64,000 nt of DNA. Source: Escherichia coli. Lineage in GTDB: Bacteria > Pseudomonadota > Gammaproteobacteria > Enterobacterales > Enterobacteriaceae. Every line of letters begins with the position of its first letter. Within the stretch, counting starts at the first letter, position 1. The position numbers and the translations under genes are program-made. Location of the stretch: NCBI RefSeq assembly GCF_045037415.1, contig NZ_CP173438.1; one strand, written 5' to 3'. Below are positions 1-24,532 of the stretch, one piece after another. The notes beneath the pieces were generated by a model. The model had not been told where the DNA came from and did no database searches. It saw only the letters and a program-made list of their open reading frames with translations.

Positions 1-521
1 TGGCACGTGAAGCGTTAGGCACAAACTGGCTAAAATTGGAGATTCACCCTGACGCCCGCTGGCTGTTGCCCGATCCCATCGAAACCCTGAAAGCCGCCGA
101 AACGCTGGTACAACAGGGATTTGTCGTGCTGCCTTACTGCGGGGCCGATCCGGTATTGTGTAAACGTCTGGAAGAAGTCGGCTGTGCAGCGGTGATGCCG
201 CTCGGCGCGCCGATTGGCTCGAATCAGGGACTGGAAACCCGCGCCATGCTGGAGATTATTATCCAGCAGGCCACCGTTCCGGTGGTTGTCGATGCTGGCA
301 TCGGCGTTCCCAGCCATGCCGCGCAGGCGCTGGAAATGGGGGCCGACGCGGTGTTAGTGAATACGGCGATTGCCGTCGCGGACGATCCCGTCAACATGGC
401 GAAGGCATTTCGTCTGGCGGTAGAAGCAGGCCTGCTGGCACGTCAGTCCGGACCGGGCAGCCGCAGTCATTTTGCTCATGCCACCAGCCCGCTGACTGGA
501 TTTCTGGAGGCATCGGCATGA
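1..521 (+). CDS. thiG: thiazole synthase ThiG, 5'-truncated by window start (C-terminal ~161 aa visible)
   Basis: ORF 36..521 translation matches ThiG C-terminus; 4-nt ATGA overlap with thiH start; synteny thiG-thiH. Confidence 0.85.
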
Positions 522-1651
522 AAACCTTCAGCGATCGCTGGCGACAACTGGACTGGGATGACATCCACCTGCGTATCAACGGCAAAACGGCTGCTGACGT
601 AGAGCGGGCGCTAAATGCCTCGCAACTCACCCGCGACGACATGATGGCATTGCTATCACCCGCCGCCAGTGGCTATCTGGAACCACTGGCCCAGCGAGCG
701 CAACGTCTGACTCGTCAGCGATTTGGCAACGTCGTCAGCTTCTACGTCCCGCTTTATCTTTCCAATCTTTGCGCTAACGACTGTACTTATTGCGGATTTT
801 CTATGAGCAACCGCATCAAGCGCAAAACGCTGGATGAAGCGGATATTGCCAGGGAAAGCGCCGCTATACGGGAGATGGGCTTTGAACATCTGCTATTAGT
901 CACTGGTGAACATCAGGCGAAAGTGGGGATGGATTACTTTCGTCGTCATCTCCCTGCCCTGCGTGAACAGTTCTCTTCACTACAGATGGAAGTGCAACCG
1001 CTGGCGGAGGCGGAATATGCCGAGTTAAAACAGCTTGGCCTCGATGGAGTAATGGTTTATCAGGAGACATATCATGAGGCGACTTATGCCCATCATCATC
1101 TGAAAGGTAAAAAACAGGACTTCTTCTGGCGGCTGGAAACGCCGGATCGGCTAGGGCGTGCGGGGATTGATAAGATAGGCCTCGGCGCGCTAATCGGCCT
1201 TTCCGACAGCTGGCGAGTTGACTGCTATATGGTTGCCGAACATTTGCTATGGCTGCAACAGCATTACTGGCAAAGCCGCTACTCTGTCTCCTTCCCACGC
1301 CTGCGTCCATGTACTGGCGGCATTGAGCCTGCGTCGATTATGGATGAACGCCAGTTAGTGCAAGCCATCTGCGCTTTCCGGCTGCTTGCACCGGAGATTG
1401 AACTGTCACTCTCCACGCGGGAATCACCGTGGTTTCGCGATCGCGTGATTCCGCTGGCAATTAATAACGTCAGCGCTTTTTCGAAAACGCAGCCAGGTGG
1501 CTATGCCGACAACCACCCCGAGCTGGAACAGTTCTCACCGCACGACGATCGCAGACCGGAAGCGGTTGCTGCCGCGTTAACCGCTCAGGGTTTGCAGCCG
1601 GTATGGAAAGACTGGGACAGCTATCTGGGACGCCCATCGCAAAGGCCATGA
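518..1651 (+). CDS. thiH: 2-iminoacetate synthase ThiH (radical SAM)
   Basis: 377 aa; radical SAM CxxxCxxC motif ([10 protein letters not shown]); follows thiG. Confidence 0.9.
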
Positions 1652-1846
1652 GACAGAATGTAAGAACGTAAATTTATTCCGAGCCGCTACGGAAGATGAA
1701 AAACGCAAGGTTGTTGAAAGCGTTGTGTTTTTTTATGGTAGTGCCGTCAGCAGGAATGTTGTCCAGGGCGAAAAGCTTCTTCCTCGTTTCGCCCTGCCTT
1801 TCTTAATATTTCCCGTGAAGACTTTGCCCTCTGAATAACACCCATA

Positions 1847-1876
1847 AAAAAACCCGCCGAAGCGGGTTTTTACGTT
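1847..1876. terminator. Bidirectional intrinsic terminator between convergent thiH and rpoC
   Basis: GC-rich hairpin aaacccgc-cgaa-gcgggttt flanked by A-run upstream and T-run downstream, so usable on both strands. Confidence 0.7.
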
Positions 1877-1892
1877 ATTTGCGGATTAACGA

Positions 1893-4800
1893 TTACTCGT
1901 TATCAGAACCGCCCAGACCTGCGTTCAGCAGTTCTGCCAGGCTGGCAGATGCGTCTTCTGCAGTCACCTGCGGTGCAGCCGGAGCTTCACCCGCAGCACG
2001 GCGACGCATACGATCCTGGTGGTACGCGTAACCGGTACCTGCCGGGATCAGACGACCCACGATAACGTTCTCTTTCAGGCCGCGCAGTTCGTCGCGTTTG
2101 CCCGCAACGGCTGCTTCGGTCAGCACGCGAGTGGTCTCCTGGAACGATGCCGCGGAGATGAAGGACTCGGTTGCCAGAGACGCTTTGGTAATACCCAGCA
2201 GATCGCGGGAGTAAGTTGCACCCACTTTACCGTTCGCTTCCAGTTCGCGGTTTGCGATCTTGACGCGAGAGTATTCAACCTGTTCACCTTCCAGGAAGTC
2301 GGAGCTGCCCGCGTTAACGATGGTAGCTTTACGCAGCATCTGACGAACGATAACTTCGATGTGTTTATCGTTAATCTTAACGCCCTGCAGACGGTATACG
2401 TCCTGTACTTCGTTAACGATGTAACGAGTCACAGCATGAACACCACGCAGACGCAGAATGTCGTGCGGCGCTTCCGGACCGTCGGAAATTACGTCACCAC
2501 GTTCTACACGTTCACCTTCGAACACGTTGAGCTGACGCCATTTCGGAATCATCTCTTCGTACGGATCGCTACCGTCTACCGGGGTGATAACCAGACGACG
2601 TTTACCTTTGGTTTCTTTACCGAAGGAAACGATACCGCTGATTTCAGCCAGGATTGCCGGCTCTTTCGGACGACGTGCTTCGAACAGGTCCGCAACGCGC
2701 GGCAGACCACCGGTGATGTCCTTGGTACCGCCGGATTCCTGCGGAATACGCGCCAGGGTGTCACCAGAGCTGATCTGTACGCCATCTTCCAGCTGAACAA
2801 TCGCTTTACCCGGCAGGAAGTACTGCGCAGGCATATCGGTACCCGGGATCAGAACGTCGTTACCCTGAGCATCAACGATTTTCAGTGCCGGACGCAGATC
2901 TTTACCACCTGCGGTACGTTCTGCGGAATCCAGAACCACCAGCGAAGACAGACCGGTCAATTCGTCGGTCTGACGAGTAATGGTCTGGCCGTCGATCATG
3001 TCAGTAAAGCGTACAAAACCGCTTACTTCGGTGATAACCGGCATGGTGTGCGGGTCCCAGTTTGCAACGGTTTCGCCGCCAGCAACCTGTTCGCCATCGC
3101 CTTTCGCCAGTACCGCACCGTAAGGTACTTTGTAGCTTTCTTTGGTACGACCGAATTCGTCGATCAGTTTCAGTTCGGTGTTACGGGAAGTGATAACCAG
3201 TTTACCGCTGGAGTTCACAACCGACTTCACGTTGCTGAGCTTGATGCTACCTTTGTTTTTCACCTGGATGCTGGATTCAGCAGCCGCACGAGATGCCGCA
3301 CCACCGATGTGGAACGTACGCATGGTCAGCTGTGTACCCGGTTCACCGATGGACTGTGCCGCGATAACACCGATTGCTTCACCTTTATTGATGATGTGGC
3401 CACGCGCCAGGTCACGACCGTAGCAGTGCGCACATACACCAAAGTCGGTGTCACAAGATACAACAGAACGTACTTTAACCGCGTCGACAGAGTTCTCTTC
3501 CAGCAGGTCACACCACTGTTCGTGCAGCAGCGTGTTGCGCGGAACGAGGATATCAGCAGTACCCGGCTTCAGAACGTCTTCAGCAGTTACACGACCCAAT
3601 ACGCGATCGCGCAGCGGCTCTTTAACGTCACCACCCTCGATAACCGGAGTCATCATGATACCTTCATGGGTACCACAATCGTCTTCGGTAACCACCAGGT
3701 CCTGCGCCACGTCAACCAGACGACGAGTCAGGTAACCGGAGTTCGCCGTTTTCAGTGCGGTATCCGCCAGACCTTTACGAGCACCGTGGGTGGAGATGAA
3801 GTACTGGAGTACGTTCAGACCTTCACGGAAGTTCGCGGTGATTGGCGTTTCGATGATGGAGCCATCCGGCTTCGCCATCAGACCACGCATACCAGCAAGC
3901 TGACGAATCTGTGCCGCAGAACCACGCGCACCGGAGTCGGCCATCATGTAGATGCTGTTGAAGGAAACCTGCTTCTCTTCCTGACCGTCACGGTTAATAA
4001 CGGTTTCAGTTTGCAGGTTATCCATCATCGCTTTGGATACACGATCGTTCGCCGCAGCCCAGATATCGATAACTTTGTTGTAGCGTTCGCCCGCAGTTAC
4101 CAGACCAGACTGGAACTGCTCCTGAATTTCAGCAACTTCTGCTTCTGCCTCGGAGATGATTTCGTGTTTCTTCTCCGGGATGACCATGTCATCGATACCA
4201 ACAGATGCACCAGAACGCGCTGCATATGCAAAGCCGGTATACATGATCTGGTCCGCAAAAATAACGGTCGGTTTCAGACCGAGAATGCGGTAGCAGGTGT
4301 TCAGCATTTTGGAGATTGCTTTTTTACCCAGCGCCTGGTTGACGATGGTGTAAGGCAGACCTTTCGGTACAATCATCCACAGAATGGCACGGCCAACAGT
4401 CGTGTCTTTCAGGCTGGTTTTCGCCACTAATTCACCGTTAGCATCTTTTTCATACTCGGTGATACGCACTTTAACGCGCGCATGCAGAGAAGCCAGACCA
4501 GAGCGATACAGACGTTCTGCTTCTTTCGGGCCAGTCAGCACCATGCCTTCGCCTTTGGCGTTAACACAGTCGCGGGTCATGTAGTACAGACCCAGTACAA
4601 CGTCCTGAGACGGAACGATGATTGGTTCGCCGTTCGCCGGGGACAGGATGTTGTTGGTAGACATCATCAGCGCACGCGCTTCCAGCTGGGCTTCCAGCGT
4701 CAGCGGTACGTGAACGGCCATCTGGTCACCATCGAAGTCGGCGTTATATGCCGCACAAACCAGCGGGTGCAGCTGGATAGCTTTACCTTCGATCAGTACC

Positions 4801-6116
4801 GGTTCAAATGCCTGGATACCCAGACGGTGCAGAGTCGGTGCACGGTTCAGCAGTACCGGGTGTTCGCGGATAACTTCGTCCAGGATATCCCAAACGACAG
4901 CTTCTTCGCGCTCAACCATTTTCTTCGCAGCTTTGATGGTGGTAGCAAGACCACGCAGTTCCAGCTTGCCGTAGATGAACGGTTTGAACAGCTCCAGCGC
5001 CATTTTCTTCGGCAGACCGCACTGATGCAGACGCAGGTATGGACCTACGGTGATTACAGAACGACCGGAGTAGTCAACACGCTTACCGAGCAGGTTCTGA
5101 CGGAAACGACCCTGTTTACCTTTGATCATGTCGGCCAAAGATTTCAGAGGACGCTTGTTAGAACCGGTGATTGCACGACCGCGACGACCGTTATCCAGCA
5201 GGGCGTCTACCGCTTCCTGCAGCATACGTTTTTCGTTACGTACGATGATATCCGGCGCAGCCAGGTCCAGCAGACGTTTCAGACGGTTGTTACGGTTAAT
5301 GACGCGACGATACAGATCGTTCAGGTCAGAAGTCGCGAAACGACCACCATCCAGCGGAACCAGCGGACGCAGATCTGGCGGCAGTACCGGCAGAACGGTC
5401 AGGATCATCCACTCTGGTTTGTTACCAGACTGAACGAACGCTTCCAGCAGTTTGATACGCTTGGTCAGCTTTTTACGCTTGGTTTCGGAGTTGGTTTCGT
5501 TCAGCTCTTCACGCAGCTGTTCGCACTCTTGCTCCAGATCCATGCTCTTCAGCAGGGCCTGGATTGCTTCCGCCCCCATCTTCGCGTCGAATTCGTCACC
5601 GAACTCTTCCAGCGCGTCCAGATACTGCTCTTCAGTCAGGATCTGCTGACGCTCCAGGTTGGTCATACCACCTTCGATAACCACATAGGATTCGAAGTAC
5701 AGTACGCGTTCGATATCGCGCAGCGGCATATCGAGCAGCAGGCCGATACGGGACGGCAGCGATTTCAGGAACCAGATGTGCGCAGTCGGGGAAGCCAGTT
5801 CGATGTGGCCCATACGCTCACGGCGTACTTTAGTCTGGGTCACTTCAACGCCGCACTTCTCACAGATGACGCCACGGTGTTTCAGGCGCTTGTACTTACC
5901 GCACAGGCACTCGTAATCTTTTACCGGCCCAAAGATACGGGCGCAGAAAAGGCCGTCACGTTCTGGTTTGAACGTACGGTAGTTGATGGTTTCCGGCTTT
6001 TTAACTTCACCGAAAGACCATGAACGGATCATGTCTGGCGAAGCCAGAGCAATTTTGATCGCATCAAACTCTTCGGTTTTAGTCTGCGCTTTCAGAAACT
6101 TTAATAAATCTTTCAC
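1893..6116 (-). CDS. rpoC: DNA-directed RNA polymerase subunit beta' (RpoC)
   Basis: 1407 aa; catalytic NADFDGDQM motif; 76-bp gap to rpoB. Confidence 0.98.
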
Positions 6117-10459: not shown

Positions 10460-10500
10460 CCTTACAGCGCAAAAAGGCTGGTGACTAAAAAGTCACCAGC
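10460..10500 (-). promoter_or_regulatory. rplL-rpoB intercistronic attenuator hairpin
   Basis: Perfect palindrome ctggtgact-aaaa-agtcaccag followed on the minus strand by a T-run; lies between rplL stop and rpoB start. Confidence 0.6.
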
Positions 10501-10540
10501 CATCAGCCTGATTTCTCAGGCTGCAACCGGAAGGGTTGGC

Positions 10541-13603: not shown

Positions 13604-13987
13604 TCAGAACCTCAGGCCAGTGATAAAGGATACCAGGCGAACCAGAATACCATCCAGTCCCCACAGGATCAGTGACATTACTGCGGTAACCGCAGCCACA
13701 ATCAGCGTGGTGTGCAATGTTTCCTGGCGAGTCGGCCAAATGACCTTACGGACTTCGGTACGCGCTTCACGGGCAAAAGCAACGGTTGCTTTACCTTTTG
13801 TCGTTAACAGCGCGACACCACCCGCTGCAGCAATCAGAATTACTACGGCCAGCGCACGCAGCGGCAGCATAATGTCGCGATAAAGGTAGTTGCCGACAAT
13901 CGCTACCAGGAGCAATGCCACCACAACGACCCACTTCATCGCTTCCAGGCCGCGCCCGCTTCCTTGAGCTTCGGTATTCGCACTCAT
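13604..13987 (-). CDS. secE: Preprotein translocase subunit SecE
   Basis: 127 aa, hydrophobic; secE-nusG pair. Confidence 0.95.
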
Positions 13988-14159
13988 AAACCAACCTGTC
14001 AGAAGTATTCTACAAACATTTTCACCCCGCGATCGCGAGGCAAACCAAATCGAAACGCGTATTAGCTTTTCGGATTATACGCCCTCAACAGAGCCTGTCT
14101 CAGCAATGATTATGACAAAGAAAATCACTGATGAGCCAGGTTCTGGTACGAAAGCGTGC

Positions 14160-14192
14160 AAAAAGGGCATCAAATGATGCCCTTTTAGTGCG
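14160..14192 (-). terminator. tufB intrinsic terminator
   Basis: Hairpin aaaagggcatca-aatgatgccctttt just downstream of tufB stop, with a T-run on the minus strand. Confidence 0.6.
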
Positions 14193-14216
14193 CATTGCGT
14201 CAAATGTTATCGGCAA

Positions 14217-15437
<1,221 letters not shown>

Positions 15438-15515
15438 TCACCACATCAACCAGGCAACATGCCCGACTTGTTGAATGCAATAAACAGAAGGAAAAAACAG
15501 GGAGGAGAAAAGAAG

Positions 15516-15591
15516 TGGTGCTGATAGGCAGATTCGAACTGCCGACCTCACCCTTACCAAGGGTGCGCTCTACCAACTGAGCTATATCAGC
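15516..15591 (-). tRNA. thrT: tRNA-Thr (GGT)
   Basis: Reverse complement reads GCTGATATAGCTCAGTTGGTAGAGCGCACCCTTGGTAAGGGTGAGGTCGGCAGTTCGAATCTGCCTATCAGCACCA. Confidence 0.95.
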
Positions 15592-15597
15592 ACATCT

Positions 15598-15672
<75 letters not shown>

Positions 15673-15788
15673 ATCCTGGAACTCGGCTACCTGATTTTCA
15701 TTCTGCACTGAATATCGAGAGAAGCTCTCTTTATTCGAGCCGGTAAGCGAACTTATCGTCTCGGGCTACGCCATCGCGTGGCCGAAAT

Positions 15789-15873
<85 letters not shown>

Positions 15874-15881
15874 GGACTTGA

Positions 15882-15957
<76 letters not shown>

Positions 15958-15964
15958 ATCAAGT

Positions 15965-16080
15965 AGCGCGCATTCTATGGAGACATGCGAGTTCATGCAA
16001 CTAAAAAATTGCATAATTTGTTTTATTGGTCACATTTTATGCGACACGATGAAGAAACAGCCGAACGGAGGGCAGATTAG
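15965..16080 (-). promoter_or_regulatory. thrU-tyrU-glyT-thrT-tufB operon promoter with AT-rich upstream region
   Basis: On the minus strand: -35 TTGCAT, -10 TAGAAT, GC-rich discriminator GCGCGC just before the first tRNA; AT-rich tract further upstream. Confidence 0.5.
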
Positions 16081-16318
16081 CACACTTTTTCAACATCATT
16101 GTGCTCAACAATGTGCTCCTGCTAAACCATAATTCTTTTTATCAGATGGAATATCTGTCACATTGCTTTTCAACGATAGCTTCCTGGGAGAGATTTTTTC
16201 TTATTATTCCTCCCCATCTGGTGTTACCCTCCTGCCCATTAACCCATTCAACAGAACTGTGACGCGCCATGGCAAATATCGCTTTGCCGATAGAGCTATG
16301 ACCGCCAGAAACATGCTT

Positions 16319-17269
16319 ATGAGTATAAAAGAGCAAACGTTAATGACGCCTTACCTACAGTTTGACCGCAACCAGTGGGCAGCTCTGCGTGATTCCGTAC
16401 CTATGACGTTATCGGAAGATGAGATCGCCCGTCTCAAAGGTATTAATGAAGATCTCTCGTTAGAAGAAGTTGCCGAGATCTATTTACCTCTGTCACGTTT
16501 GCTGAACTTCTATATAAGCTCGAATCTGCGCCGTCAGGCAGTTTTGGAACAGTTTCTTGGTACCAACGGGCAACGCATTCCTTACATTATCAGTATTGCT
16601 GGTAGTGTCGCGGTGGGGAAAAGTACAACCGCCCGTGTATTGCAGGCGCTATTAAGCCGTTGGCCGGAACATCGTCGTGTTGAACTGATCACTACAGATG
16701 GCTTCCTTCACCCTAATCAGGTTCTGAAAGAACGTGGTCTGATGAAGAAGAAAGGCTTCCCGGAATCGTATGATATGCATCGCCTGGTGAAGTTTGTTTC
16801 CGATCTCAAATCCGGCGTGCCAAACGTTACAGCCCCTGTTTACTCGCATCTTATTTATGATGTGATCCCGGATGGAGATAAAACGGTTGTTCAGCCTGAT
16901 ATTTTAATTCTTGAAGGGTTAAATGTCTTACAGAGCGGGATGGATTATCCACACGATCCACATCATGTATTTGTTTCTGATTTTGTCGATTTTTCGATAT
17001 ATGTTGATGCACCGGAAGACTTACTTCAGACGTGGTATATCAACCGTTTTCTGAAATTCCGCGAAGGGGCTTTTACAGACCCGGATTCCTATTTTCATAA
17101 CTACGCGAAATTAACTAAAGAAGAAGCTATTAAGACTGCCATGACATTGTGGAAAGAGATCAACTGGCTGAACTTAAAGCAAAATATTCTACCTACTCGC
17201 GAGCGTGCCAGTTTGATCCTGACGAAAAGTGCTAATCATGCAGTAGAAGAGGTCAGACTACGCAAATAA
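16319..17269 (+). CDS. coaA: Pantothenate kinase (type I)
   Basis: Track ORF is 368 aa; trimmed to MSIKEQTL (316 aa); P-loop GSVAVGKST. Confidence 0.93.
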
Positions 17270-17274
17270 TTTTC

Positions 17275-17296
17275 AGGGGAGCTAATGCTCCCCTTT
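17275..17296. terminator. Bidirectional terminator between convergent coaA and birA
   Basis: Hairpin ggggagc-taat-gctcccc with T-rich flank. Confidence 0.55.
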
Positions 17297-17297
17297 C

Positions 17298-18263
17298 TTA
17301 TTTTTCTGCACTACGCAGGGATATTTCACCGCCCATCCAGGGTTTTATTATTCCATCCTGCTCAAGTAATAAAGCACCCTGTTTGTCTATTCCGCGTGAA
17401 ATGCCAAATATTTCTTTATCACCAATGATAAGTTTCACTGGGCGATTAATAAAATTATCCAACTTTTCCCAGCGCGAAAGATAAGGTGCCAATCCTTCTT
17501 GCTCGAAGAGTTCCAGCGCCGCGCGTAATTCACGTATCAGCATGGCCGCAAGACTATTACGATCGAGATTGATCCCGGCTTCCTGCAGCGTGATCCACCC
17601 TTGATTAACGACACTCTCTTCAACACGACGCATTGCCATGTTGATCCCTGCGCCAATGACTATTTGCGCCGCATCGCCGGTTTTGCCAGTCAGCTCCACA
17701 AGAATGCCTGCCAGCTTGCGATCCTGCAGATAGAGGTCATTAGGCCATTTAACACGAACTTTATCTGCACCCAGCTTGCGTAATACTTCCGCCATCACGA
17801 TACCGATAACCAGACTTAAACCAATCGCCGCCGCCGGGCCTTGTTCCAGACGCCAGAACATCGACAAATATAAGTTTGCGCCAAAAGGCGAAAACCATTT
17901 CCGACCCCGGCGACCACGGCCAGCCTGCTGGTATTCTGCAACACAGGCATCGCCCGATTTAAGCTCTCCGATACGATCAAGAAGGTACTGATTCGTGGAG
18001 TCAATAACGGGCAGCACAGTTACACTACCGCCATCCAGCTGACCCAATATCTGTTCAGCATTAAGTAACTGGATAGGCTCAGGCAGGCTGTATCCTTTAC
18101 CCGGAACGGTAAAGACATCAACGCCCCAGTCACGCAGTGTCTGAATGTGTTTATTAATAGCCGCCCGGCTCATTCCTAACGATTCACCCAACTGCTCACC
18201 AGAGTGAAATTCGCCATTCGCTAACAGCGCGATTAATTTCAGCGGAACGGTATTATCCTTCAT
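17298..18263 (-). CDS. birA: Bifunctional biotin-[acetyl-CoA-carboxylase] ligase / biotin operon repressor
   Basis: 321 aa; 4-nt overlap with murB. Confidence 0.95.
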
Positions 18264-19288
18264 GAAATCGTCTCCACTGCGCTAACTTCACCTGATGCAC
18301 CAATAAAGCGAACTTCAGGCTCAAGCCAGACATTAAATTTTTCACCCACTTTTTGTCTTACATGAAGTGCCAGTTGCACCACATCTTCGCTTTTTGCATT
18401 GTCTTCATTAATGAGGACTAACGCCTGTTGACGGTGCACCGCAGCCCTACCCATTTGCATCCCTTTTAGCTGGCACTGATCGATAAGCCAACCTGCTGCC
18501 AGTTTTACTGAACCATCCGCCTGGGGATAATTTGGTGCTGTTGGAAATTGTGCCAGTAATACTTTAGCCGTTTCGGCAGATACAACAGGGTTTTTGAAGA
18601 AACTACCGGCATTGCCATTCACTTTTGGATCAGGGAGTTTGGTGGTGCGCATATGACACACCGCATTAAATACTTGCTGTGGCGTTACTGTTGTAGGATC
18701 CAGACGAGTTAAGTCACCATACGTCAGTACAGGTTGCCACTCTTTTGGCAGACGCAGGCCTACGGCTACAATAGCGAAGCGATCCTGGTATTCATGTTTA
18801 AAAATACTGTCGCGATAGCCAAAACGGCACTCTTTGGCAGTTAAGCGCACTTGCTTGCCTGTCGCCAGTTCAACACAATCAACATAAGCGCAAACTCGCT
18901 GTAATTCTACGCCATAAGCACCAATATTCTGGATAGGTGATGAGCCGACACAACCAGGAATTAATGCCAGATTTTCCAGACCAGGCATACCTTCCTGCAA
19001 AGTGTATTTTACAAGGCGATGCCAGTTTTCTCCGGCTCCTACATGTAAATACCACGCATCAGGTTCATCATGAATTTCGATACCTTTGATCCGGTTGATG
19101 ATCACCGTGCCGCGATAGTCTTCCAGAAAAAGTACATTACTTCCTTCACCCAGAATAAGAACGGGTTGTCCTTCTGCGGTTGCATGCTGCCAGGCATTGA
19201 GTAATTGTTGTTCGTCTTCGGCACATACAATGTGCTGAGCATTATGATCAATGCCAAATGTGTTCCAGGGTTTTAAGGAGTGGTTCAT
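18260..19288 (-). CDS. murB: UDP-N-acetylenolpyruvoylglucosamine reductase
   Basis: 342 aa; directly downstream of the rRNA operon. Confidence 0.95.
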
Positions 19289-19381
19289 AGCTGCTTTCCT
19301 GATGCAAAAACGAGGCTAGTTTACCGTATCTGTGGGGGGATGGCTTGTAGATATGACGACAGGAAGAGTTTATAGAAACGC

Positions 19382-19410
19382 AAAAGGCCCAGTCTTCCGA
19401 CTGGGCCTTT
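19382..19410 (-). terminator. rRNA operon terminator (single hairpin)
   Basis: Hairpin aaaggcccagtc-ggaag-actgggccttt immediately 3' of the 5S gene, with T-run on the minus strand. Confidence 0.7.
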
Positions 19411-19421
19411 CGCTTAATTTG

Positions 19422-19541
19422 ATGCCTGGCAGTTCCCTACTCTCGCATGGGGAGACCCCACACTACCATCGGCGCTACGGCGTTTCACTTCTGAGTTCGG
19501 CATGGGGTCAGGTGGGACCACCGCGCTAAGGCCGCCAGGCA
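19422..19541 (-). rRNA. rrf: 5S ribosomal RNA
   Basis: 120 nt; reverse complement reads TGCCTGGCGGCCTTAGCGCGGTGGTCCCACCTGACCCCATGCCGAACTCAG...GGGAACTGCCAGGCAT. Confidence 0.95.
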
Positions 19542-19641
19542 AATTCTGTTTTATCAACACGTCCCGTTATGACCTGTCGATTTAATCTGCTATCAAGCTT
19601 ACTTATCGATGTCTCTTCCGCCAAAACATCTTCGGCGTTGT

Positions 19642-22545
<2,904 letters not shown>

Positions 22546-22727
22546 TCACAACCCGAAGATGTTTCTTGCGATTCATCATCGTGTCGCGAAAATTTGAGAG
22601 ACTCACGAACAACTTTCGTTGTTCAGTGTTTCAATTTTCAGCTTGATCCAGATTTTTAAAGAGCAAAACTTCGCAGTGAACCTTTGCAGGTACACTCTGA
22701 AGTATTTTTATTTAATCACTACAGAGA

Positions 22728-22803
22728 TGGTGGAGCTATGCGGGATCGAACCGCAGACCTCCTGCGTGCAAAGCAGGCGCTCTCCCAGCTGAGCTATAGC
22801 CCC
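22728..22803 (-). tRNA. tRNA-Ala (TGC), spacer tRNA
   Basis: Reverse complement reads GGGGCTATAGCTCAGCTGGGAGAGCGCCTGCTTTGCACGCAGGAGGTCTGCGGTTCGATCCCGCATAGCTCCACCA. Confidence 0.95.
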
Positions 22804-22845
22804 ATAACATGTAGTTAAAACCTCTTCAAATTTGCGGTGCAAATT

Positions 22846-22922
<77 letters not shown>

Positions 22923-22990
22923 GTAGAGGTTTTACTGCTCATTTTCATCAGACAATCTGTGTGAGCACTTCAAAGTACGCTTCTTTAAGG

Positions 22991-24532
<1,542 letters not shown>

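What the first reader, a model, noticed from the sequence alone, without database searches (positions are those of the whole stretch)
1652..1892. No yjaZ/htrC between rpoC and thiH
As I recall the K-12 map, the small heat-shock/stationary-phase gene yjaZ (htrC, about 540 bp) sits between the end of rpoC and the end of thiH. Here the two convergent genes are separated by only 241 bp, containing a bidirectional terminator hairpin and no ORF of 60 aa or more on either strand. The gene therefore appears deleted or never present in this lineage.
Basis: partly seen in the sequence, partly recalled or inferred. Interest (0 to 1): 0.3.

Follow-up and report, generated by a model that had tools for sequence, protein, structure and literature searches.

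The report
Common E. coli yjaZ–sroH deletion allele
This ST131-type E. coli lacks the small gene yjaZ and the neighbouring small-RNA gene sroH between rpoC and thiH, but the gap is an old deletion allele found in about 30% of complete E. coli genomes and already reported, so it is ordinary.

Summary
thiH (518-1651, +) and rpoC (1893-6116, -) converge on a 241-bp spacer that has no ORF of 60 aa or more and carries the rpoC terminator hairpin. In K-12 MG1655 the same spacer is 1,161 bp and holds yjaZ (htrC) and the sRNA gene sroH.

This is a frequent allele, not a private loss. Of 5,426 complete E. coli genomes, 1,634 have the short form (CFT073, Nissle, E2348/69 and ST131 strains identical to the window). 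yjaZ is present in 3,738, and 50 (IAI39, CE10) carry a 6.6-kb island at the site instead. The 1,684 genomes with no yjaZ-like DNA anywhere equal 1,634 + 50, so the gene has not moved elsewhere.

Deletion is favoured over "never present". One genome (HH45) has a 304-bp intermediate that keeps yjaZ nt 71-116 exactly, and the ends of its filler match the window's 27 nt.

Loss of sroH in B2+D strains was published in 2012, and the heat-shock role of htrC has been retracted. Verdict: real, already known, low interest.

The parts
518..1651 (+). thiH, the last gene of the thiCEFSGH operon. It converges on rpoC.
   Evidence: 377-aa ORF. Annotated as thiH in the identical strain SK1144. Differs from K-12 thiH at 64 of 1,134 nt.
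1652..1813 (+). Block downstream of thiH shared by all E. coli alleles at this site. It contains three hairpins: 1677-1694; 1699-1734 (A-run, stem, U7); and 1763-1796 followed by a U-rich tail at 1797-1811. These are the likely thi operon terminators (inferred).
   Evidence: Aligns to K-12 within a 414-nt block at 96% identity. Conserved in short, long, HH45 and island alleles and in two other Escherichia species, up to ...CCTTTCTTAA(A/T)A. Hairpins fold at -14.6 and -15.0 kcal/mol. Termination activity was not tested.
1814..1840 (.). 27-nt junction (CGTGAAGACTTTGCCCTCTGAATAACA) standing where K-12 has 947 nt (yjaZ promoter region, yjaZ, shared terminator, sroH and its upstream region). It is read as a deletion scar. 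Positions 1822-1831 (CTTTGCCCTC) are the reverse complement of yjaZ nt 106-115.
   Evidence: Pairwise and multiple alignments. All four short alleles examined share the same junction. Both ends are colinear with the HH45 filler, which keeps yjaZ nt 71-116 exactly. On its own the 27-mer is not significantly similar to the K-12 segment (212 of 2,000 shuffles score as well).
1841..1892 (-). rpoC terminator region. The hairpin at 1846-1871 (CCCGC-CGAA/TTCG-GCGGG) has U7 on the rpoC sense strand and U5 on the thi sense strand, so it is potentially bidirectional.
   Evidence: Terminator scan and folds at -18.5 and -14.1 kcal/mol. Lies inside a 426-nt block 99% identical to K-12, with no mismatch in 1841-1892. 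The same hairpin follows rpoC in Citrobacter, Enterobacter, Lelliottia, Cedecea, Kosakonia and others.
1893..6116 (-). rpoC (RNA polymerase beta' subunit).
   Evidence: 1,407-aa ORF; annotation in SK1144 and K-12.

Best explanation
The 241-bp spacer is the common 'short' allele of the E. coli rpoC-thiH interval. It consists of a thiH-distal block with terminator-like hairpins, a 27-nt deletion scar, and the ancestral rpoC terminator.

An ancestor carried the 947-bp yjaZ-sroH module between the two terminator regions. Nested deletions removed it, passing through an intermediate like that of strain HH45, and left about 10-20 nt of yjaZ codons 32-41.

Both flanking terminator regions survive. The convergent thi and rpoBC transcripts should therefore still end correctly (inferred, not tested), and the loss carries no obvious cost. 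The allele is old. It is fixed in B2 lineages such as ST131, from which the window comes, and it has moved onto other flanking haplotypes by recombination.
For: Shown directly:
- K-12 has a 1,161-bp spacer with yjaZ and sroH. The window has 27 nt in place of 947 nt.
- The Rfam sroH model hits K-12 at 201 bits and hits nothing in the window.
- 1,634 of 5,426 complete genomes carry the contiguous short form. The junction is the same in the four short alleles aligned, which differ only by point changes.
- yjaZ-like DNA occurs in 3,742 genomes even with sensitive blastn. The remaining 1,684 equal 1,634 short + 50 island genomes.
- HH45 has a 304-bp spacer whose filler matches yjaZ nt 71-116 exactly. 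The 15 nt next to its thiH-side flank match the short form at 14 of 15 positions but the K-12 flank at only about 4 of 15.
- yjaZ alleles differ by 2-3.7% within E. coli while staying at this site, so the gene has been resident for a long time.
- yjaZ also decays independently elsewhere: O157:H7-type strains have a 71-nt internal deletion between CTGA repeats.

Published: sroH loss on the B2+D branch was inferred as secondary loss (PMC3318445).

Inferred: the order of the deletions, and that both transcripts still terminate.
Against: - The 27-nt filler alone is not significantly similar to yjaZ (p about 0.1). The case for a scar rests on one intermediate genome, HH45, out of 5,426.
- 35 nt of the HH45 filler have no identifiable source, so HH45 is not a simple two-deletion product of a K-12-like allele.
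- No outgroup with yjaZ at this site was found. The two other Escherichia species recovered carry a different island, and 78 loci from other genera have no yjaZ next to thiH.
- The module is AT-rich (41.5% GC against 52% for the window). YjaZ belongs to a patchy, plasmid-borne family, so it was itself probably acquired at some earlier time.
Confidence: 0.8

Rival explanations
1. Never present. The short spacer is the ancestral E. coli state, and the 947-bp yjaZ-sroH module was inserted between the two terminators only in the ancestor of the A/B1/E/D-type lineages. HH45 would then be a later oddity.
For: The module has low GC (41.5%). YjaZ-family genes sit on 559 plasmids and on plasmid-like contigs near rdgC, umuDC-like and higBA genes. 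No yjaZ lies at this site in 80 loci from other Enterobacteriaceae, where the gap varies from 329 to more than 5,800 bp and behaves as an insertion hot spot. The filler's similarity to yjaZ is not significant on its own.
Against: The short-form filler is homologous to the HH45 filler at both ends, and in HH45 that sequence runs straight into 46 nt of exact yjaZ coding sequence. Under this rival, HH45 would need a 66-nt patch insertion exactly at a chance 10-nt match. yjaZ alleles are 2-3.7% diverged at this locus, as old as the flanking haplotypes. A published reconstruction favours secondary loss.
Confidence: 0.15
2. Relocated. yjaZ and sroH are still in this genome but at another locus or on a plasmid.
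For: Nine E. coli plasmid records carry yjaZ-like DNA at 60-80% identity. 23 Escherichia plasmids encode YjaZ-family proteins.
Against: The 64-kb window has no meaningful hit (best tblastn E = 0.83; no blastn hit at E <= 1). Only 3,742 of 5,426 genomes hold any yjaZ-like DNA, and the remaining 1,684 equal the short plus island genomes. At most 4 short-form genomes could carry even a distant plasmid copy.
Confidence: 0.02
3. Assembly or sequencing artefact that collapsed the spacer.
For: None.
Against: The same 451-bp stretch is contiguous in 1,634 independent complete genomes, including CFT073, Nissle, E2348/69 and many ST131 strains.
Confidence: 0.01

Closest known systems
E. coli K-12 MG1655 rpoC-yjaZ-sroH-thiH interval (b3988-b3990, b4691)
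   Same: Same convergent genes. The thiH-distal block lies in a 414-nt alignment at 96% identity, and the 52-nt rpoC terminator region has no mismatch.
   Different: K-12 has 947 nt (yjaZ, sroH and their control regions) where the window has a 27-nt scar, giving spacers of 1,161 and 241 bp.
Published phyletic pattern of sroH: loss in B2 + D strains (Skippington & Ragan 2012, PMC3318445)
   Same: The window belongs to a B2 (ST131-type) lineage and lacks sroH, the loss listed in that paper.
   Different: That study scored presence or absence of the sRNA in 27 genomes. It did not describe the junction, the co-loss of yjaZ, the HH45 intermediate or the frequency in thousands of genomes.
Bidirectional intrinsic terminators between convergent genes (general class; my own knowledge of Term-seq and long-read transcriptome studies)
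   Same: A GC-rich stem with a tetraloop, an A-run upstream and a T-run downstream, placed between two convergent operons.
   Different: Only the sequence and the predicted fold were examined here, not termination. The thi side also has its own upstream hairpins, so the rpoC hairpin may serve only as a back-stop for thi read-through.
IAI39/CE10-type island allele at the same site
   Same: Same left boundary, just after ...CCTTTCTTAAAA downstream of thiH.
   Different: It carries 6.6 kb (DUF4867 protein, 884-aa protein, split permease, ribokinase) and a different, Klebsiella-like rpoC terminator. It occurs in 50 genomes, and at about 90% identity in E. whittamii and Escherichia sp. MOD1-EC7003.

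Membership tests
Short (yjaZ-sroH-less) rpoC-thiH allele of E. coli, B2 type | Contiguous thiH end, 27-nt junction and rpoC terminator with no insert | tested here: met
   The 451-bp query is covered in one piece in 1,634 genomes. Hits are 100% identical in SK1144 and ST131-type strains. The 83-bp junction is identical in CFT073, Nissle and E2348/69.
Short (yjaZ-sroH-less) rpoC-thiH allele of E. coli, B2 type | No yjaZ-like DNA elsewhere in the genome | tested here: inconclusive
   Absent from the 64-kb window. At population level, the 1,684 genomes without yjaZ-like DNA equal 1,634 short + 50 island genomes. The rest of this particular genome could not be read.
YjaZ family (NCBIfam NF007263; Pfam PF27200) | An ORF of about 180 aa matching the family profile | tested here: not met
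   No ORF of 60 aa or more in the spacer. No meaningful tblastn hit in the window (best E = 0.83). K-12 YjaZ itself scores 430 bits against NF007263.
sroH sRNA (Rfam RF00372) | Match to the covariance model at or above the gathering score (80 bits) | tested here: not met
   K-12 scores 201 bits; the window has no match at gathering threshold. sroH is not among the sub-threshold hits in 1600-1950, which are all driven by the terminator hairpin.
Rho-independent (intrinsic) terminator, bidirectional | GC-rich stem-loop followed by a U-tract on each strand | tested here: met
   Positions 1846-1871: 10-pair stem including A-U pairs, 4-nt loop, U5 on the + strand and U7 on the - strand.
Rho-independent (intrinsic) terminator, bidirectional | Transcript 3' ends map to the U-tracts in vivo | not testable with these tools
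   Needs Term-seq or 3' RACE in a short-allele strain.

The most novel reading that the evidence does not exclude
The gap between the thi and rpoC terminators may be a recurrent capture-and-loss site for mobile cargo in Enterobacteriaceae. YjaZ may be a plasmid-derived protein with a remote RelE/ParE/HigB-like fold (an orphan toxin-like or plasmid-maintenance factor) that E. coli captured together with sroH and that B2 lineages later purged. The presence or absence of the module would then be a functional difference between phylogroups, not neutral decay.
Probability: 0.1. Interest if true: 0.3.

Novelty: already known. Interest (0 to 1): 0.1.

Why it matters
It matters little. The result explains a difference between K-12 and B2/ST131 gene maps, and it warns against treating K-12 gene order as the species norm. 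It shows that yjaZ (whose htrC heat-shock role has been retracted) and the poorly characterised sRNA SroH are dispensable accessory genes, missing from about 31% of complete E. coli genomes.

The small new details are the exact junction, the yjaZ vestige, the single HH45 intermediate and the four-allele structure of the site. They could serve as a phylogenetic marker or as a safe-harbour insertion site; one study already placed resistance markers in what it called a featureless region between htrC and rpoC (PMC7160681).

Tried and rejected
- Small protein or sRNA in the spacer: the ORFs are 37 aa or shorter and have no support. Rfam sub-threshold hits (rsmX, Trp leader and others) all sit on the terminator hairpin and were dismissed.
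- Testing the 27-nt filler directly against the K-12 segment: not significant (212 of 2,000 shuffles), so the scar argument had to go through HH45.
- Source of the 35 unexplained nt in HH45: no similarity to the K-12 region upstream of yjaZ nt 71, no other E. coli genome, no YjaZ homologue with a matching N-terminus, and no hit in JGI metagenomes.
- Searching for further HH45-like intermediates in metagenomes using the junction pattern: no hit.
E. albertii, E. fergusonii and E. marmotae were not seen.
- The E. fergusonii YjaZ homologue (78% identity) is on an 88-kb plasmid-like contig, not at this site.
- A literature search for 'sroH' alone returned only papers on self-rated oral health.

Full report
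**1. Checking the observation**

The window starts in the thi operon. thiG is at 36-521 and thiH at 518-1651 on the + strand. rpoC is at 1893-6116 on the - strand. The two converge on 1652-1892, which is 241 bp. No ORF of 60 aa or more lies in that interval. The largest internal ORFs are 36, 37 and 32 aa.

A hairpin, AAAAAAACCCGCCGAAGCGGGTTTTT, lies at 1846-1871. The terminator scan detects it on the + strand. On the rpoC sense strand it folds and is followed by U7. The description is accurate in every respect.

**2. Comparison with K-12**

In NC_000913.3, rpoC ends at 4189573 and thiH ends at 4190735. The 1,161 bp between them contain yjaZ (4189786-4190325) and the sRNA gene sroH (4190327-4190487, on the thiH strand).

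BLASTN aligns the window to K-12 up to position 1813 on the thiH side (414 nt, 96%) and from 1841 on the rpoC side (426 nt, 99%). In between, the window has 27 nt where K-12 has 947 nt, at 4189626-4190572. The missing block holds the yjaZ upstream region, yjaZ, the terminator shared by yjaZ and sroH, sroH, and 85 nt upstream of sroH.

The Rfam sroH model scores 201 bits on K-12 and finds nothing in the window. YjaZ has no meaningful tblastn hit in the 64 kb (best E = 0.83), and the 947 nt have no blastn hit at E <= 1. The window therefore lacks two K-12 genes, not one.

**3. How common the allele is**

The window is E. coli. Its region 40000-62000 is 100% identical to many genomes that I recognise as ST131, phylogroup B2 (JJ1887, O25b:H4, ZH063, MNCRE44, 81009). 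The strain typing is my own knowledge.

| Allele at the rpoC-thiH site | Complete genomes (of 5,426) | Example strains |
|---|---|---|
| yjaZ-sroH (long form) | 3,738 | K-12, O157:H7, IAI1 |
| Short form (as in the window) | 1,634 | CFT073, Nissle, E2348/69, 'Seattle 1946', NGF1 |
| 6.6-kb island | 50 | IAI39, CE10 (phylogroup F, my knowledge) |
| 304-bp intermediate | 1 | HH45 |

- The short-form count comes from a 451-bp query too short for the tool to bridge a 920-bp insert. The 83-bp junction is identical in the example strains listed.
- The island encodes a DUF4867 protein, an 884-aa protein, a split permease and a ribokinase.
- With sensitive blastn, yjaZ-like DNA is found in 3,742 genomes. 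The other 1,684 equal 1,634 + 50. Genomes with the short allele therefore do not carry yjaZ elsewhere.

**4. Deleted or never present?**

Four short alleles from different backgrounds share the same junction and differ only by point changes. That implies a single origin.

HH45 has a 304-bp spacer. Its 92-nt filler contains a run identical to yjaZ nt 71-116. The 15 nt next to its thiH-side flank (GAGGGCAAAGTCTTT) match the short form (GAGGGCAAAGTCTTC) at 14 of 15 positions, but match the K-12 flank at only about 4 of 15. The rpoC-side end (G-run followed by TTAT) is also shared between HH45 and the short form and not with K-12. The simplest reading is that the short form descends from an HH45-like form by a further loss of about 63 nt. 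On that reading, window 1822-1831 is a vestige of yjaZ nt 106-115.

Three further results support this reading:
- yjaZ alleles at this locus differ by 2.0-3.7%, comparable to the flanking thiH haplotypes. The gene is therefore an old resident.
- O157:H7-type strains show independent decay: a 71-nt deletion between CTGA repeats gives a 147-aa product.
- Skippington & Ragan (2012) had already listed sroH as lost on the B2+D branch, in a section arguing for secondary loss (PMC3318445).

The reading has four weaknesses:
- The 27-mer alone is not significantly similar to yjaZ (212 of 2,000 shuffles score as well).
- HH45 is one genome out of 5,426.
- 35 nt of its filler have no identifiable source.
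- I found no outgroup with yjaZ at this site.

I put deletion at about 0.8 and 'never present in this lineage' at about 0.15.

**5. The site in a wider frame**

I recovered 80 loci from other Enterobacteriaceae using ThiH. None encodes a YjaZ relative near thiH. Where rpoC is within reach, the thiH-rpoC gap ranges from 329 bp to more than 5.8 kb.

The rpoC terminator hairpin AAAAACCCGCTTCGGCGGGTTTTTTT is conserved across many genera. Sequence diverges immediately after it. On the thiH side, all E. coli alleles and two other Escherichia species agree up to ...CCTTTCTTAA(A/T)A and diverge after that. The space between the two terminator regions therefore behaves as a replaceable cassette site.

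E. whittamii and Escherichia sp. MOD1-EC7003 carry the IAI39-type island at about 90% identity. In IAI39 the island comes with a different rpoC terminator that resembles those of Klebsiella, Raoultella and C. amalonaticus.

**6. What was lost**

- YjaZ matches NCBIfam NF007263, 'stationary phase growth adaptation protein'. The protein database tags its family as PF27200.
- The family is patchy: Enterobacterales, Aeromonas, Oceanimonas and cyanobacteria. It is encoded on 559 plasmids, 371 of them from Klebsiella, including a 5.8-kb ColE1-type plasmid.
- The 78%-identical E. fergusonii copy lies on an 88-kb plasmid-like contig near rdgC and higBA. A 70% homologue lies next to umuDC-like genes.
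- The K-12 module is 41.5% GC, against 52% for the window. It was therefore probably acquired horizontally before it was lost here.
- There is no match in PADLOC, PHROGs or by sequence in the PDB.
- The htrC heat-shock designation has been retracted (PMC11551758). SroH is described as under-characterised, with kbl as one in-vitro target (PMC6172242).

**7. How the spacer most likely works**

The 162-nt thiH-distal block carries two terminator-like hairpins. One is at 1699-1734 (A-run, stem, U7; -14.6 kcal/mol). The other is at 1763-1796 with a U-rich tail (-15.0 kcal/mol). The rpoC hairpin has U-tracts on both strands.

I infer that thi transcripts end mainly at the first two hairpins, with the rpoC hairpin as a back-stop, and that rpoBC transcripts end at the rpoC hairpin as in K-12. 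No transcript data were available, so this step is inference.

**8. Verdict**

The feature is real and correctly described. It is an ordinary, widespread and previously reported presence/absence polymorphism. The new details are minor: the exact junction, the vestige, the HH45 intermediate, the co-loss of sroH, and the four-allele structure of the site.

Novelty: already known. Interest: about 0.1.

Noticed in passing
window 22728-22922 (rrn operon 19424-24532, minus strand): The 16S-23S spacer of this rrn operon (the one next to murB/murI, rrnB in K-12) carries tRNA-Ile(GAT) and tRNA-Ala(TGC). K-12 rrnB carries tRNA-Glu (gltT) there. The spacer type has therefore been switched in this lineage.
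   Followed up: partly
L094 (IAI39) 13850-20469; L008 and L009 7135 onward: A third allele at the same site. It is a 6.6-kb island (DUF4867 protein, 884-aa hypothetical protein, split cytosine/purine permease, PfkB-type ribokinase) in 50 E. coli genomes including IAI39 and CE10. It also occurs at about 90% identity in E. whittamii and Escherichia sp. MOD1-EC7003. In IAI39 it brings a different, Klebsiella-like rpoC terminator.
   Followed up: partly
L002 (HH45) 2466-2500: 35 nt (TTATCGTGGGATGCGCGAGGAAAAAAAGACGGTCT) in the HH45 intermediate spacer match nothing in the K-12 module, in other E. coli genomes or in JGI metagenomes. Their origin is unexplained.
   Followed up: yes
L007 (strain 08-3914, O157:H7-type) 987-1430: O157:H7-type strains carry yjaZ with a 71-nt internal deletion flanked by CTGA repeats, annotated as a 147-aa 'protein HtrC'. 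This is independent decay of the same gene. An intact version of this divergent allele (3.7% from K-12) exists in metagenome contig L099.
   Followed up: partly
window 518-1651 compared with L001, L004, L005, L006: thiH differs from K-12 at 64 of 1,134 nt (5.6%), while the last 600 nt of rpoC differ at only 5. The short allele sits on at least three thiH haplotypes, one of them identical to K-12 over 552 nt (strain PRO_A-1412). The interval is a recombination mosaic.
   Followed up: partly
L001 4787-5326 (K-12 yjaZ); L088, L091, L096: YjaZ-family genes are common on plasmids (559 records, mostly Klebsiella). They lie near rdgC, umuDC-like and higBA genes. The confident AlphaFold model has only weak RelE/ParE/HigB-like fold matches. 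The function remains unknown.
   Followed up: partly
window 10475-10536 and 22553-22661: Rfam gathering-level hits to 'Pseudomonas sRNA P26' and to StyR-44 (inside the rrn operon, next to the 23S rRNA match). I read both as routine hits in conserved ribosomal operons, and by position the P26 hit should fall in the ribosomal-protein/rpoB operon region. I did not check either further.
   Followed up: no
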